Source of the DNA: a virus
Taxonomy: Duplodnaviria; Heunggongvirae; Uroviricota; Caudoviricetes
Direction: 5' to 3' (one strand)
Length of the DNA: 19,672 bases
IMG/VR virus record: IMGVR_UViG_2531839666_000030
Coordinates: 1-19,672 of that record
The notes under the pieces were generated by a model. That model searched no databases. It was not told the origin of the DNA and was given only the letters and a program-made list of their open reading frames with translations. A program made the translations under genes and the position numbers. The stretch's first letter is position 1; each line of letters starts with the position of its first letter. Below are positions 8,408-12,079 of this stretch, piece by piece.

Positions 8408-8922
8408 TGTTCTTTAAAACATCAAACCCTTCCGCGCTGGCCGCGTGGAAAAAATATCAGCAGGACTGCCAGAAAGTTAAGGATGAGGCAAAACGCCTTG
8501 AGGCCGTGCTGAATGTTGCGTGCCGGTCGGTATTTGTATCCGGTATCAGTGGCTTTTGTTTTAAAGGGCTGCGCTTTATGGATGACAAATATCCTTTTCA
8601 TCGCGACTTATGGCGAAAACCGACTGCGTCGAATGGCTGGAGCTGCACACCGCGCACATCACGTATTCCCAAAGCCCTGCGCGTTGCCTCTGACGAACTT
8701 AACAGTCTGTGGCGTGAATATTCGCCCGTCACGTATGCCAGAACCGATGCCCTGTTGTTCTGGCTGGGCATTGACTTTTCAGCAATATTGCATGGTCCCG
8801 TGAAGTGGTTCTGCGTTGACGATGTTATTTACCTTCAGTGCGAAGATGATTCCGCAAAACGGAAAATGACCGAAATTCTGTCTGATGAGTTTTATGCTGC
8901 TGAAAAGCGAGTCAGGGGGTGA
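8407..8922 (+). CDS. hypothetical protein (171 aa)
   Basis: Start overlaps the previous stop by 1 nt. No recognised domain. Confidence 0.45.
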   Translation: MFFKTSNPSALAAWKKYQQDCQKVKDEAKRLEAVLNVACRSVFVSGISGFCFKGLRFMDDKYPFHRDLWRKPTASNGWSCTPRTSRIPKALRVASDELNSLWREYSPVTYARTDALLFWLGIDFSAILHGPVKWFCVDDVIYLQCEDDSAKRKMTEILSDEFYAAEKRVRG

Positions 8923-8925
8923 TGT

Positions 8926-9477
8926 ATGATGATTTTACAACCCATGGGGCGAAAAGGCCGTGCACCCGCTCATGTCCGTGCGTGGACACCTGAAGAAGAT
9001 GCACTGCTGATTGCGCTTTATCCATCCACCCCGGTTAAGGATATTGCTGTCAGGGTAAAAAGAAGTTTCTGGGGTGTACATAACCGGATTGTTTTATTAC
9101 GCGGTACTTACCCGGAGTTGCTCAAATGCAAACGTCCAAGATTTAAACATGATGAAGATAAATTTATCCGAAAAAATGCCAGAACGATGACCGGTAAGCA
9201 AATAGGAGAATATCTGGGGCGAGACCGGGATTCTGTCCACAAACGGGCGCGATATATTGGCGTAAGCATGAAAAAATACGGAGAGTTGCTGCCCTTCACC
9301 CGTATACCTGATGATGATGTTCATCTTATTCGTGAATTACGGGATGCTGAATCACCACGACGTCTTACCTTCCGGGAAATAGGCGAGAAATTTGAATTAT
9401 CCGAGAGTACGGTGAATTTTATTTATCACCATCGCCGGACTGCCGAGGACGCTGTATTACGGGAGTTAACGCCATGA
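8926..9477 (+). CDS. putative DNA-binding protein (Myb/SANT-like N-terminal segment, C-terminal HTH)
   Basis: 183 aa with AGGGGG Shine-Dalgarno 6-7 nt upstream. WTPEEDALLIALY...KDIAVRV...GVHNR looks Myb/SANT-like; LTFREIGEKFELSESTVNFIYHHRR resembles a sigma-70 region-4 / LuxR-type HTH. Pattern-level inference. Confidence 0.45.
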   Translation: MMILQPMGRKGRAPAHVRAWTPEEDALLIALYPSTPVKDIAVRVKRSFWGVHNRIVLLRGTYPELLKCKRPRFKHDEDKFIRKNARTMTGKQIGEYLGRDRDSVHKRARYIGVSMKKYGELLPFTRIPDDDVHLIRELRDAESPRRLTFREIGEKFELSESTVNFIYHHRRTAEDAVLRELTP

Positions 9478-9659
9478 TAAAGAGACTTGTATTTTTCGCA
9501 ATTTTCGTTCCGGTGTTGGGGGTTGGTTTTATATTTGCGATTACAGGAAACCTGTCCATGATGCCAGATATTTGGTTCTTTATCAGGATGTCGCTCTTCC
9601 TGTTTATTATGAATCTTCTTATCGACATATATATCCGTATTACTGGAAAACATAAATGA
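9474..9659 (+). CDS. small hydrophobic membrane protein (61 aa, two predicted TM helices)
   Basis: MIKRLVFFAIFVPVLGVGFIFAITG...IWFFIRMSLFLFIMNLLIDIYI contains two hydrophobic stretches. ATGA overlap with upstream stop. Gene is AT-rich. Confidence 0.5.
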   Translation: MIKRLVFFAIFVPVLGVGFIFAITGNLSMMPDIWFFIRMSLFLFIMNLLIDIYIRITGKHK

Positions 9660-10030
9660 GAAAAATCACGTCCTTGTCAGAGTTACAGGAGATGAATATG
9701 AGTATTGAATTAAGATCGTCTTATGAGTATCGCAAATTTCTTATCGCCGGAGGCATGAAACCGGAAGATGTGGAAAAAATCGTTTCTTTTATGGATAAGG
9801 AATGTGATAAGCGGGATGTGTCAGAAATTATTATGGATGACATGATTCTGGATTCAGTCGTAGCGTTAAGTCCGTTATGGATTGTGCATTCTCTTGCTGA
9901 AATTGCCAAAGGCACCGATAAACAGGCAGCTGTTGCTGCCCTTCAGACGCTTAATGAAATGCGTATATCTCCACGCCCGACATTAATACATATGATTCTG
10001 TCCAGCATGGAGGATAAAGCAAATGAATAG
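9656..10030 (+). CDS. hypothetical acidic protein (124 aa)
   Basis: ATGA overlap with previous gene; AT-rich; no recognised domain. Internal ATGs at codons 14 and 16 are alternative starts. Confidence 0.45.
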   Translation: MRKITSLSELQEMNMSIELRSSYEYRKFLIAGGMKPEDVEKIVSFMDKECDKRDVSEIIMDDMILDSVVALSPLWIVHSLAEIAKGTDKQAAVAALQTLNEMRISPRPTLIHMILSSMEDKANE

Positions 10031-10220
10031 TCTACCCGCTGGATGGGCGCGCCCTCTGATGGCTAAGAAGCATCATTTTTTTAAAACTGGCGATAATATC
10101 AGTATATGTAGGCGGTGGTTATATCTGGCTCATAATCGCGAGCCGGATACATTTGAAAGCCCTGATGACTGTGCCGAATGTCGCAGAAGACTGAATAAGG
10201 AGAAAGATAATGGACAGTAG
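10023..10220 (+). CDS. hypothetical small Cys-containing protein (65 aa), possible zinc-binding
   Basis: Overlaps previous gene by 8 nt. Contains ICRRW and DDCAECRRR (C...CxxC). Speculative. Confidence 0.35.
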   Translation: MNSLPAGWARPLMAKKHHFFKTGDNISICRRWLYLAHNREPDTFESPDDCAECRRRLNKEKDNGQ

Positions 10221-10506
10221 TTCGCAGTTGTTCTGGTGTTTATATATCACATCGTTTTTCGGTGCATTCGTCATTACACGATGGCTGTGCCGGAAAGTTA
10301 TCAGTATTTTTCATAAAAAATACCTGATTGGGCAGGCGGCGACTTCTCTGATTAATGCACTTGCCAGATATCATAAGGGGGAATACTACTCAAGAATAAA
10401 AACTGATGATGGTTTTAATATTTTTGTGATTCCTCCGGAGTATCGGGTTCAGCTCGATCGGGAAAGTAATATCTATCATATCAGCAGGAGTGTTGATACA
10501 GCATGA
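10210..10506 (+). CDS. hypothetical membrane-anchored protein (98 aa, N-terminal TM segment)
   Basis: N-terminal LFWCLYITSFFGAFVITRWL is hydrophobic. Overlaps neighbours at both ends. Confidence 0.45.
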   Translation: MDSSSQLFWCLYITSFFGAFVITRWLCRKVISIFHKKYLIGQAATSLINALARYHKGEYYSRIKTDDGFNIFVIPPEYRVQLDRESNIYHISRSVDTA

Positions 10507-11012
10507 GAGGGAAACTGATATCCGCTATTCATGTGGCAAAGCGCGAGCTTGCCCTGGATGATGAGACCTACACATTCGTACTACTGGCAGCCACCGGCAA
10601 AACCAGTTGCCGGGATATGTCACCCGGTGAGTTATCCCGCGTGCTGGATGTTTTCAAAAAACGCGGTTTTAAAGTGCGTCAGAAACCGGTTAACCGGGCC
10701 TTAAAACCGGGTACGGTGACCGCCAAAATTCGCGCCATCTGGAAAGTGATGCACCGGCAGGGCTTTATCTCTGATGGTGCGGAAACCGCTCTTAACCGCT
10801 GGGTGAAATCGCAGACGGCCGCGCAGAACGGCGGCGAAGGTGTGGCAAACTGGCAGTGGCTGGAGCAACACCCCGCCCTGGCCTCAGATGTGCTGGAGCG
10901 TCTCAAGCGATGGCACCGCCGCAAAATGCTGGCCGCGATGGGAATGCCCGAACGCACGCTGATGGGGTATGACGCCGTTTGCAGGCAGTATGAAAAATCA
11001 CTTCCCCGTTAA
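10503..11012 (+). CDS. gemA: GemA-like protein (Mu gp16 family, DUF1018-like)
   Basis: N-terminal KLISAIHVAKRELALDDETYTFVLLAATGKTSCRDMSPGELSRVLDVFKKRGF matches the conserved GemA/gp16 signature as recalled. Lies immediately upstream of mor as in Mu. Confidence 0.78.
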   Translation: MRGKLISAIHVAKRELALDDETYTFVLLAATGKTSCRDMSPGELSRVLDVFKKRGFKVRQKPVNRALKPGTVTAKIRAIWKVMHRQGFISDGAETALNRWVKSQTAAQNGGEGVANWQWLEQHPALASDVLERLKRWHRRKMLAAMGMPERTLMGYDAVCRQYEKSLPR

Positions 11013-11016
11013 CCCC

Positions 11017-11047
11017 AAATCCCGCCACAACGCGGGATTTTTATTTT
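11017..11047 (+). terminator. intrinsic (Rho-independent) terminator candidate between gemA and mor
   Basis: 9-bp stem AAATCCCGC (11017-11025) / GCGGGATTT (11032-11040), 6-nt loop CACAAC, followed by TTTTATTTT. Confidence 0.7.
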
Positions 11048-11081
11048 AAACTTACCGGGAACGCGAGAACCGGAGGCTGAT

Positions 11082-11507
11082 ATGGCAGAAACTCAGATGA
11101 GCATGTTTGGTGGTGACAGTGAGCAACTGCACGCCCTTATCGACCGCCTTGATGACATCCCTGATGATGTTCTCAAAAAGAACTGGCCGCGGACCCTGTC
11201 AGAACTGGTTGAAGTCACCGGCGCAGAACTTCAGCGTCAGGGGATTGAGCCGGTACTGGCCGGTAAACTGGCACGCAAGGTGGCTGCGGCTCAGGCAGCC
11301 TATATGGGCGGACGGGGTTATTACCTGCCGGTCGGGGAATCTCTCTTTGCCGAGCTGCGAAACAATGAGATATTTTCGCGCTGGGACCGGGGCGAGAAAA
11401 TTGAATCCCTTCGCCGCCATTACCGGATGTCAGAAACCCAGATTTATACCGTCATACGTGAACAGCGCCGTCTGCATCTGGCAAGAACGCAACCGCCACT
11501 TTTCTGA
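11082..11507 (+). CDS. mor: Mor/C-family transcriptional activator (middle/late gene activator)
   Basis: 141 aa. Acidic N-terminus and C-terminal GGRGYYLPVGESLFAELRNNEIFSRWDRG...SETQIYTVIREQRR parallel the Mu Mor/C fold (GGxxxYIP...HTH) as recalled. Sits between gemA and lys. Confidence 0.8.
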   Translation: MAETQMSMFGGDSEQLHALIDRLDDIPDDVLKKNWPRTLSELVEVTGAELQRQGIEPVLAGKLARKVAAAQAAYMGGRGYYLPVGESLFAELRNNEIFSRWDRGEKIESLRRHYRMSETQIYTVIREQRRLHLARTQPPLF

Positions 11508-11578
11508 TATTCCGCAAAGCCTGCCGCCTTTCCTTCACCGTTACGCTGACTCAGAGAACATCATGAGACAGCGTAACA

Positions 11579-12079
11579 ATGCCAAAACTCCCCGCACCAC
11601 TGCGTAAAAAGCTGATTGCCCTTGTTCTGGCCGGTGCCGGGACGTTCACGATTGCCACGCATTACACCGGTTACTGGGAAGGGAAAGAAAACTCCACGTA
11701 TATCGATCCCACCGGTACACCCACCATCTGTTACGGCCATACCGGCCCGGATGTGAAACCGGGTATGACCCTGACGGATGAAGAATGCCTGGAACTACTG
11801 GAAAAGGACATGAAATGGGCCTTTGCGGCCATTGATCGGCGTGTTCAGGTGCCGCTTACCCGTGGTCAGACGGTGGCGCTGGCTTCGTGGATCTTCTGGG
11901 CCGGTGAAACGAACTTCCGCAACTCCACGCTTCTGCGCCTGATCAATGCCGGGCAGATGCCCGCGTCCTGTAAGCAGTATATCCGCTGGATTTATTCAAA
12001 GGGGGTGAAACTCCCCGGCCTTGAGGCCCGCCGTTCGGCGGATGAATGGTTATGTCGCTACGACTTGCCGAAAGTCTGA
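11579..12079 (+). CDS. lys: endolysin, T4-lysozyme-like (GH24) with N-terminal SAR-type signal-anchor
   Basis: 166 aa. Gly/Ala-rich weakly hydrophobic N-terminus KKLIALVLAGAGTFTIAT, then catalytic-region motifs YWEGKENSTYIDPTGTPTICYGHTG (E...D...T triad) similar to Mu Lys as recalled. Confidence 0.88.
   Translation: MPKLPAPLRKKLIALVLAGAGTFTIATHYTGYWEGKENSTYIDPTGTPTICYGHTGPDVKPGMTLTDEECLELLEKDMKWAFAAIDRRVQVPLTRGQTVALASWIFWAGETNFRNSTLLRLINAGQMPASCKQYIRWIYSKGVKLPGLEARRSADEWLCRYDLPKV

What the first reader, a model, noticed from the sequence alone, without database searches (positions are those of the whole stretch)
9474..10506. AT-rich cassette of four small genes with membrane proteins, probable moron
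Sampled stretches here are about 27-43% GC by my hand count, clearly lower than the flanking phage genes. The cassette encodes a 61-aa two-TM protein, a 124-aa acidic protein, a 65-aa Cys-containing protein and a 98-aa TM-anchored protein, all overlapping. This has the hallmarks of a horizontally acquired cargo module such as superinfection exclusion, abortive infection or a toxin/antitoxin-like system. The low GC may also make it an H-NS-silenced locus.
Basis: partly seen in the sequence, partly recalled or inferred. Interest (0 to 1): 0.7.

Follow-up and report, generated by a model that had tools for sequence, protein, structure and literature searches.

The report
Variable accessory genes in Mu-like prophage
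This AT-rich stretch is the swappable, function-unknown tail end of the early operon of a known E. coli Mu-like prophage (Sakai Sp18 type): four real small genes that phages exchange one gene at a time, which is an ordinary feature of phage genomes and not a self-contained defence or toxin module.

Summary
Window 9474-10506 has 40.4% GC, against 52.7% for the whole window and 55-57% for the flanking core genes. It is the lowest-GC 1033-bp stretch inside the prophage.

The window is a Mu-like prophage of the O157 Sakai Sp18 type. The four genes lie inside the early operon, between a 183-aa HTH gene and gemA. They are on the same strand with coupled starts. No promoter-like or terminator-like site of their own was found. 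The first terminator follows gemA.

The slot is a mosaic. Of 232 E. coli genomes with this backbone, o61 is in 109, o110 in 214, o65 in 210 and this o98 allele in 71. Other variants carry unrelated genes, and exchange junctions sit at start codons. Mu holds different genes in the slot. SfMu has an o110 homologue there. A Salmonella Mu-like element has an o65 homologue next to gemA, and o65 relatives also occur in Pbunavirus phages (virulent, from my own knowledge).

No match to any defence, toxin-antitoxin or other known family was found. Best reading: a plastic accessory region of the early lytic operon, not a classical moron. Low interest.

The parts
8407..8922 (+). Mu gp12-like early gene (171 aa). 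It is the last gene before the slot that has a homologue in Mu, so it serves as the left anchor.
   Evidence: 53% identity to the Mu_12 region by tblastn; phrog_2314.
8926..9477 (+). 183-aa HTH / Myb-like DNA-binding protein. It is absent from Mu and has low GC3, so it belongs to the compositionally odd block. It is present in every Sp18-type variant examined, as two deeply divergent alleles.
   Evidence: phrog_323 'transcriptional regulator, D5-like' at 2e-58. Weak HTH Pfam hits. No Mu match. GC3 0.40. dS of 0.56-0.65 between alleles.
9474..9659 (+). o61: 61-aa basic protein predicted to form a two-TM hairpin (N-in/C-in by the positive-inside rule). The start overlaps the HTH gene's stop (ATGA).
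   Evidence: Hydropathy. dN/dS 0.15-0.26. Weak phrog_19804 hit. Found in 109 of the 232 backbone-carrying E. coli genomes. Replaced by unrelated 103-aa and 116-aa genes in L006.
9698..10030 (+). o110: 110-aa acidic (pI 4.9) all-helical protein. It belongs to a very small family confined to Mu-like phages and is a homologue of SfMu_14.
   Evidence: Homologue lengths. Junction alignment. SD and ATG. dN/dS 0.14-0.20. phrog_1988. 37% identity to SfMu_14 in the same slot. Only 10 hits among 1.84 billion representatives. AF2 predicts six helices at pLDDT 50.
10023..10220 (+). o65: 65-aa basic protein with the conserved motif GWxxP..KxHxF..SxCGxW...C..C. His18, Cys29, Cys50 and Cys53 are the likely metal ligands. 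It belongs to a widespread small phage protein family.
   Evidence: Alignment. phrog_2358. dN/dS 0.07-0.11. Homologues in Klebsiella, Pantoea, Buchananvirus and Pbunavirus phages. Homologues in lambdoid and other prophages, and directly upstream of gemA in a Salmonella Mu-like element. AF2 pLDDT 76.
10210..10506 (+). o98: 98-aa basic protein with an N-terminal TM anchor and a C-terminal domain of about 70 aa that is probably cytoplasmic. It has two alleles (51% identity) that share an identical TM segment. Its stop overlaps the gemA start (ATGA).
   Evidence: Alignment. Hydropathy. phrog_17269. DNA homology to the Sakai allele stops after nt 131. The window allele is found in 71 genomes.
10503..11012 (+). 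GemA (Mu gp16 family). It is the conserved right anchor of the slot.
   Evidence: PF06252 at 9.5e-30; 43% identity to Mu GemA.
11017..11040 (+). Intrinsic-terminator-like hairpin (9-bp stem followed by a T-run). It is the first one downstream of the four genes and probably marks the end of the early transcript.
   Evidence: Consensus scan.

Best explanation
The four genes are the plastic, non-core tail of the early (Pe-driven) operon of an Sp18-type Mu-like prophage. This is the counterpart of Mu's gp13-gp15 slot in the 'semi-essential early' region, and of the 'regions of genomic plasticity' described in Pseudomonas Mu-like phages.

Shown:
- They are real genes.
- They lie on the same strand as A, B, gam and gemA.
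- Three of the four internal junctions have coupled or overlapping start and stop codons.
- They have no promoter-like or terminator-like site of their own.
- Each is an independently exchangeable unit. Recombination junctions fall at start codons, and the genes come from a low-GC pool shared among phages.

Inferred:
- They are silent in the lysogen, because the c repressor shuts off Pe.
- They are made in the first minutes after induction or infection as part of the long early transcript, which probably ends at the hairpin after gemA.
- Their products are dispensable modifiers of the host cell during lytic growth.
- o61 and o98 insert in the inner membrane.
- o65 is a small His/Cys3 metal-binding protein, and o110 is an acidic helical protein. 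Both probably act by binding a host or phage macromolecule.

My committed guess for their role is host takeover or counter-defence during lytic development, not protection of the lysogen. I put about 0.8 on the architectural and expression part and only about 0.3-0.4 on that functional class.
For: - Identity of the element: A, B, Gam, gp11_C, GemA and Mor family hits, and 96-99% DNA identity to E. coli prophages including Sakai Sp18.
- Real genes: dN/dS 0.07-0.26 for o61, o110 and o65.
- Operon-internal: no plus-strand promoter-like site anywhere in 8800-11700, and no plus-strand terminator-like site before 11017-11040, after gemA. Shine-Dalgarno motifs and overlapping stops and starts are visible in the sequence.
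- Plastic slot: Mu has unrelated gp13, gp14 and Mu_54 there. SfMu has an o110 homologue inserted between its gp13 and gp14 homologues.
- At least six different gene complements occur in Sp18-type prophages.
- Per-gene prevalence among 232 backbones is 109, 214, 210 and 71.
- Junctions fall at start codons.
- The slot is low-GC in every variant, at 40-47%.
- Lytic-cycle role: o65 homologues occur in early gene clusters of Pbunavirus phages such as F8 and in Buchananvirus Sa179lw; Pbunavirus phages are virulent from my own knowledge. In other phages they lie near DNA methyltransferases, Lar and an annotated anti-restriction gene. In an unrelated Salmonella Mu-like element one sits directly upstream of gemA.
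- The same architecture (small accessory ORFs in GC valleys of the early arm) is described for Pseudomonas Mu-like phages (PMC4378225).
Against: - No transcript data were available. Consensus promoter scans are weak evidence, and AT-rich DNA can hold non-canonical or H-NS-regulated promoters.
- Function is not established for any of the four proteins or for any alternative gene in the slot; all belong to PHROGs of unknown function.
- The neighbourhood association of o65 with anti-restriction genes is anecdotal.
- Two small membrane proteins are also what an exclusion function would look like.
Confidence: 0.8

Rival explanations
1. This is a classical moron or lysogenic-conversion module. [quoted passage not shown]
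For: - Low GC and variable presence.
- Two small membrane proteins. Their topologies recall T4 Imm and Sp, a comparison from my own knowledge.
- In a Pseudomonas Mu-like phage, small genes near the repressor/ner region do exclude other phages (PMC9936078).
Against: - No promoter-like or terminator-like site on the coding strand within the cassette.
- The genes are embedded and translationally coupled in the early operon.
- No PADLOC, Pfam or NCBIfam hit.
- The o65 family also occurs in Pbunavirus phages, which are virulent from my own knowledge.
- The genes assort independently and do not behave as a unit.
Confidence: 0.12
2. This is a toxin-antitoxin-like pair. The 61-aa membrane protein would be the toxin, and a neighbouring gene would neutralise it.
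For: o61 is small, hydrophobic and basic, and it lies next to an acidic protein, o110.
Against: - o61 is absent from about half of the prophages that keep o110 (109 against 214 genomes).
- All four o61/o98-allele combinations exist among the variants.
- A 38-nt gap separates o61 from o110, so the two are not coupled.
- No toxin or antitoxin domain was found.
- There is no autonomous promoter.
Confidence: 0.03
3. The ORFs are chance reading frames in AT-rich non-coding or regulatory DNA, for example an H-NS-bound spacer.
For: The proteins are short, three of the four have few relatives outside Enterobacteriaceae, and AT-rich DNA has fewer GC-rich stop-free frames to compete with.
Against: - Substitutions are enriched at third positions and dN/dS is 0.07-0.26 in the plus-strand frames.
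- All four proteins match PHROG families: o110, o65 and o98 at E <= 2.6e-33, and o61 only weakly at 1.3e-5.
- o65 and o110 are conserved at 30-65% identity in other phages.
- Shine-Dalgarno motifs precede each start.
Confidence: 0.01

Closest known systems
Regions of genomic plasticity (accessory ORFs) in Pseudomonas aeruginosa Mu-like phages (Cazares et al. 2014, PMC4378225)
   Same: Both consist of small ORFs (34-100 codons there, 61-110 here). They sit at fixed positions, mainly in the left (early) arm. They differ between otherwise collinear phages and coincide with GC valleys. No common recombinase target is found at the junctions (for the paper; here).
   Different: The host and phage lineage differ (E. 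coli Sp18-type), and no gene is shared with the Pseudomonas set. In the Pseudomonas phages some accessory ORFs are known anti-CRISPRs. Here no function is known for any member.
Phage Mu semi-essential early region, genes gp13 (E14), gp14 (E15) and Mu_54, between gp12 and gemA
   Same: Same position, same strand, same operon, and a similar mild GC dip (46.5% in Mu). Another Sp18-type prophage (L010) carries a Mu gp14 homologue (49% identity) in this slot. SfMu carries an o110 homologue there.
   Different: None of the four window proteins resembles Mu gp13, gp14 or Mu_54. The window additionally has a 183-aa HTH gene that Mu lacks.
Morons of lambdoid phages (Juhala/Hendrix sense; definition as quoted in PMC4378225)
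   Same: Extra DNA sits between genes that are adjacent in relatives, and its base composition is deviant.
   Different: No flanking promoter or terminator was detected. The genes are read as part of the early lytic operon. It is several independently assorting genes, not one unit.
Small membrane exclusion proteins: T4 Imm and Sp (my own knowledge) and the Fc02 exclusion genes (PMC9936078)
   Same: A 2-TM protein and an N-terminally anchored protein of about 100 aa. T4 Imm and Sp are early phage genes (my own knowledge). Fc02 gene 10 follows ner in the operon switched on at induction, whereas its olg1 is transcribed with the repressor in the lysogen.
   Different: There is no sequence similarity to anything annotated, and no functional data. 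The resemblance is one of topology only.

Membership tests
Moron (autonomous 'more DNA' unit) | Inserted between genes that are adjacent in related phages | tested here: met
   The slot content differs between Mu, SfMu and six Sp18-type variants, while the HTH/gp12 and gemA anchors are conserved.
Moron (autonomous 'more DNA' unit) | Own promoter upstream and terminator downstream | tested here: not met
   No plus-strand sigma-70-like site and no plus-strand terminator lie within 9300-10506. The first terminator is at 11017-11040, after gemA. Starts are coupled to upstream stops. Caveat: this was a consensus scan only.
Moron (autonomous 'more DNA' unit) | Base composition different from the neighbouring genes | tested here: met
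   40.4% GC against 50-57% in the flanks, and GC3 of 0.38-0.44 against 0.52-0.66.
Moron (autonomous 'more DNA' unit) | Expressed from the repressed prophage | not testable with these tools
   No transcript data. Literature searches for the Sakai locus tags ECs4956-4960 found nothing.
Accessory genes of the Mu-type early operon (SEE region / region of genomic plasticity) | Located between B/gam and gemA/mor, on the early-operon strand | tested here: met
   The gene order is A, B..., gam, gp11-like, gp12-like, HTH, o61, o110, o65, o98, gemA, all on the plus strand.
Accessory genes of the Mu-type early operon (SEE region / region of genomic plasticity) | Not conserved among close relatives; small ORFs; GC valley | tested here: met
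   Prevalence of 109, 214, 210 and 71 among 232 backbones. The ORFs are 61-110 codons. The slot is 40-47% GC in every variant.
Accessory genes of the Mu-type early operon (SEE region / region of genomic plasticity) | Dispensable for lytic growth | not testable with these tools
   Natural variants that lack o61, o65 or o98 exist, which suggests dispensability. Their viability as phages was not tested.
Known anti-phage defence systems (PADLOC models) | Significant match to a defence-system protein model | tested here: not met
   None of the four proteins had a hit at E <= 1.
Toxin-antitoxin system | Recognisable toxin or antitoxin domain, and obligate co-occurrence of the two partners | tested here: not met
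   No Pfam or NCBIfam domain was found. o61 is present in only about half of the prophages that carry its neighbours.
Zinc-ribbon-like small proteins (o65 / phrog_2358) | Four conserved metal ligands | tested here: met
   H18 is invariant, and C29, C50 and C53 are at least 90% conserved, across 20 sequences down to 30% identity. They are invariant in the 16-sequence set.
Zinc-ribbon-like small proteins (o65 / phrog_2358) | Fold or sequence match to a described zinc-finger family; metal binding | tested here: inconclusive

The most novel reading that the evidence does not exclude
At least one of these four uncharacterised proteins is a new early-expressed host-takeover or counter-defence factor. 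The best candidates are o65, a His/Cys3 mini-protein found across temperate phages and Pbunavirus phages and often near methyltransferase, Lar or anti-restriction genes, and the Mu-lineage-specific acidic o110. Alternatively, the membrane proteins o61 and o98 could form a new early superinfection-exclusion function. In either case the gp12-gemA slot of Mu-like phages would be an 'anti-defence / exclusion island' worth mining.
Probability: 0.3. Interest if true: 0.55.

Novelty: new member of a known kind. Interest (0 to 1): 0.25.

Why it matters
The practical value is modest. The analysis corrects one gene start (o110 begins at 9698) and shows that the 'cassette' is four independently shuffled genes. 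It places them in a defined hot spot for gene exchange, the slot from gp12/HTH to gemA, which is shared by Mu, SfMu, Sp18-type prophages and a Salmonella Mu-like element.

That slot holds at least ten protein families of unknown function. One of them, o65, is widespread across unrelated phages and has no Pfam family. Such hot spots in other Mu-like phages have yielded anti-CRISPRs, so this list is a reasonable shortlist for functional screening. Nothing here is surprising to a phage biologist.

Tried and rejected
- Family scans of the four proteins: Pfam, NCBIfam and PADLOC found nothing. PHROGs gave only 'unknown function' families.
- Member-by-member Pfam scans of the o65 and o110 alignments at E <= 10 returned only noise (Kunitz, DUF6011 and others).
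- Profile searches against PDB sequences returned only noise.
- AF2 of o110 gave pLDDT 50, too poor for a fold search.
- My recollection that the o65 motif resembles actinobacterial DUF3039 proteins was not supported by any sequence search. It remains an untested lead.
- The afdb50 fold library was not available.
- Direct comparison with Mu gp13 and gp14 showed no similarity.
- The reverse-strand 79-aa gene of L010 is not similar to the Mu/SfMu reverse-strand 88-aa ORF, so I dropped that idea.
- No Rfam family, no tRNA and no flanking direct or inverted repeats suggesting an IS or integration cassette.
- Literature searches for the Sakai locus tags found no papers. The Sp18 papers give no data on these genes.
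- Antisense ORFs (9419-9653, 9721-9915, 10119-10274) were rejected because the substitution pattern fits the plus-strand frames.
Full report
**What the window is.** The window carries a Mu-type transposable prophage.
- Gene order: a repressor on the minus strand (1298-1816), then on the plus strand a Ner-size gene, transposase A (2236-4344), the AAA+ B protein (4415-5347), a run of small early genes, Gam (6700-7230), a Mu gp11-like gene (7874-8407, PF25754), a Mu gp12-like gene (8407-8922), a 183-aa HTH protein (8926-9477), the four genes of the finding, GemA (10503-11012, PF06252), a Mor/C-family activator (11082-11507), a lysozyme, and head genes.
- At DNA level the finding is 99.4% identical to a prophage in E. 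coli STEC2017-197.
- The surrounding 7874-11507 region is about 96% identical to prophage Sp18 of O157:H7 Sakai.
- Sp18 is described in the literature as an apparently intact Mu-like prophage (PMC2669165).

**Check of the observation.**
- GC of 9474-10506 is 40.4%. The whole window is 52.7%, A/B are 54-55%, the remainder of the early region is 49.1%, gemA is 56.3% and the late genes are 57.1%.
- It is the lowest 1033-bp window anywhere inside the prophage.
- The deficit is strongest at synonymous sites: GC3 is 0.38-0.44 against 0.52-0.66 in core genes.
- The four ORFs exist as described.
- Comparison with 89-98% identical copies gives dN/dS of 0.07-0.26, with most changes at third codon positions, for o61, o110 and o65. 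These are therefore genes, and the antisense ORFs are not.
- o98 has too few within-allele differences for that test. It has a specific PHROG and a conserved frame in both alleles.
- Correction 1: the '124-aa' ORF starts at ATG 9698 and is 110 aa. Every homologue is 102-111 aa. AGGAG lies 6 nt upstream. In variants with a different upstream gene, homology starts about 8 nt before this ATG.
- Correction 2: the genes are therefore not 'all overlapping'. A 38-nt gap follows o61. The other junctions do overlap (ATGA at 9474, 8 nt at 10023, 11 nt at 10210, ATGA at 10503).
- Hydropathy supports two TM segments in o61 and a 17-residue TM core followed by RWLCRK in o98. o110 has pI 4.9.

**Anatomy.**
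- All four genes are on the early-operon strand, and each is preceded by a Shine-Dalgarno motif.
- A consensus scan of 8800-11700 found no sigma-70-like site on the plus strand. Two were found on the minus strand, against 4.3 expected by chance.
- There is no plus-strand terminator until a strong hairpin with a T-run at 11017-11040, immediately after gemA.
- There are no flanking repeats, no Rfam family and no tRNA.
- The genes therefore look like internal cistrons of the early transcript and not an autonomous unit.

**Comparison with relatives.**
- In phage Mu, the stretch between gp12 and gemA holds three unrelated small genes: Mu_13 (Cys-rich, 60 aa), Mu_14 (100 aa) and Mu_54. It shows a milder GC dip of 46.5%.
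- SfMu has an o110 homologue, SfMu_14 (37% identity), inserted between its gp13 and gp14 homologues.
- Of 5426 complete E. coli genomes, 232 carry the Sp18-type backbone around the slot.
- Among those genomes, o61 is found in 109, o110 in 214, o65 in 210 and the window's o98 allele in 71.
- Fetched variants show at least six different gene complements:
  - o61-o110-o65-o98 (this window, Sakai, FORC_069).
  - 103aa-116aa-o110-o65-o98.
  - o61-75aa-103aa-116aa-o110-o65-o98.
  - 109aa-116aa-frameshifted o110-reverse-strand DUF2513.
  - 110aa-Mu gp14 homologue-reverse-strand 79aa.
  - 103aa-o98 allele only.
- Homology breaks fall exactly at start codons. Inside o98 the break comes just after the TM segment.
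- The slot is low-GC (40-47%) in every variant.
- All the alternative genes are also of unknown function.
- The 'cassette' is therefore not one co-inherited unit. It is a gene-by-gene mosaic in a fixed hot spot.

**The four proteins.**
- o61: only a weak PHROG match, and it is confined to these prophages.
- o110: an exhaustive phmmer search of 1.84 billion representatives found just 10 hits. These are proteins of about 100 aa sharing the motifs LIAGG...E and LSxxWI...L..IA.G.DK.AAV.AL. The AF2 model is all-helical but of low confidence. There are no Pfam or PDB matches.
- o65: a broad family.
  - It occurs in Salmonella, Citrobacter, Buttiauxella, Trabulsiella and other enterobacterial prophages.
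  - It also occurs in a Klebsiella phage (next to a DNA methyltransferase), Buchananvirus Sa179lw (after a ParB-like gene, 1 kb from an annotated anti-restriction gene), Pantoea phage PA1, and Pbunavirus phages of Pseudomonas, which are virulent from my own knowledge.
  - In lambdoid prophages it lies among the delayed-early, nin or ea genes, near Lar or Ead/Ea22.
  - In an unrelated Salmonella Mu-like element it lies directly upstream of, and overlapping, gemA.
  - The alignment shows conserved G7, W8, P11, H18, F20 and W32, with near-invariant C29, C50 and C53. This suggests a His/Cys3 metal site.
  - AF2 gives pLDDT 76. Fold searches return only uncharacterised phage proteins or insignificant PDB matches.
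- o98: restricted to E. coli. It has two alleles at 51% identity with an identical TM segment.
- None of the four matches PADLOC, Pfam or NCBIfam.

**Interpretation.**
- The best-supported reading is that this is the plastic accessory tail of the Mu-type early operon. It is transcribed from Pe with A, B and gam after induction or infection and is silent in the lysogen.
- It is filled by small genes drawn from a low-GC pool that phages exchange at gene boundaries.
- This matches the 'regions of genomic plasticity' reported for Pseudomonas Mu-like phages: small ORFs, early arm, GC valleys, no recombinase signature. Some of those turned out to be anti-CRISPRs (PMC4378225).
- The o65 family occurs in Pbunavirus phages and in early lytic clusters. 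For that protein, this argues for a role in lytic growth and against lysogenic conversion.
- I therefore favour host takeover or counter-defence as the functional class. This step is inferred, not shown.
It has no direct support here.
- The toxin-antitoxin idea is contradicted by the independent assortment of o61 and its neighbours.

**Verdict.** The 'moron / defence cassette' interpretation is only partly supported. The feature is an ordinary example of phage mosaicism in a prophage known since the Sakai genome. It is annotated as hypothetical proteins, and no function is yet assignable to any of them. Interest is low (0.25). The most useful outputs are the corrected gene model, the definition of the gp12/HTH-gemA slot as an exchange hot spot, and the o65 family as a widespread, unclassified mini-protein.

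Noticed in passing
window 1-1050 (L001 1-1505): The Mu-like prophage sits inside another, lambdoid-type prophage. The left flank encodes an exonuclease, followed by a DUF4224 gene that PGAP marks as truncated ('missing C-terminus') just before the Mu-like repressor region. The prophage probably transposed into that gene.
   Followed up: partly
window 11017-11082 and 11082-11507: A strong terminator-like hairpin lies between gemA and the only Mor/C-family gene. That gene is closer to Mu C (39% identity) than to Mu Mor (27%). No second activator or middle operon is visible before the lysozyme. This phage type may therefore run a simpler early-to-late cascade than Mu. How the activator is transcribed past the terminator is unclear.
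   Followed up: partly
window about 18712-18791, minus strand (L001 19239-19318): RefSeq/PGAP annotates a 'tRNA-OTHER' here, between the minor head protein gene and the virion morphogenesis gene. ARAGORN and Rfam find no tRNA or other RNA family anywhere in the window.
   Followed up: partly
window 8926-9477: The 183-aa HTH/Myb-like gene exists as two deeply divergent alleles (dS 0.56-0.65, dN 0.16-0.17) in prophages whose neighbouring genes are 95-98% identical. It has low GC3 (0.40) and no Mu counterpart. It looks like another exchanged module, possibly a regulator.
   Followed up: partly
L011 3070-3727 (NZ_AP045179): A second plastic site. In this variant a reverse-strand 140-aa gene and a 78-aa gene (35% GC) lie between gemA and the Mor-family gene. 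These are the kind of opposite-strand insertions that could be true morons.
   Followed up: no
L008 2865-3275 (NZ_AP022811): In this variant a reverse-strand DUF2513 gene (39% GC) replaces o65 and o98, and o110 is frameshifted. It is another candidate for an autonomously expressed insertion in the same slot.
   Followed up: no
L017 (Salmonella GCA_010869825.1): This is a different Mu-like element (rve transposase, AAA B protein, DUF2528, Gam, GemA, Mor). It ends right after Mor and runs into the host genes lnt, corC and ybeY, so it looks like a truncated prophage that retains only the early region. It carries an o65 homologue overlapping the gemA start.
   Followed up: no
window 1006-2235: The repressor/ner control region has even lower GC (37.8%) than the finding, as in Mu itself (36-41%). 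Low GC in this prophage is therefore not unique to the four genes.
   Followed up: yes
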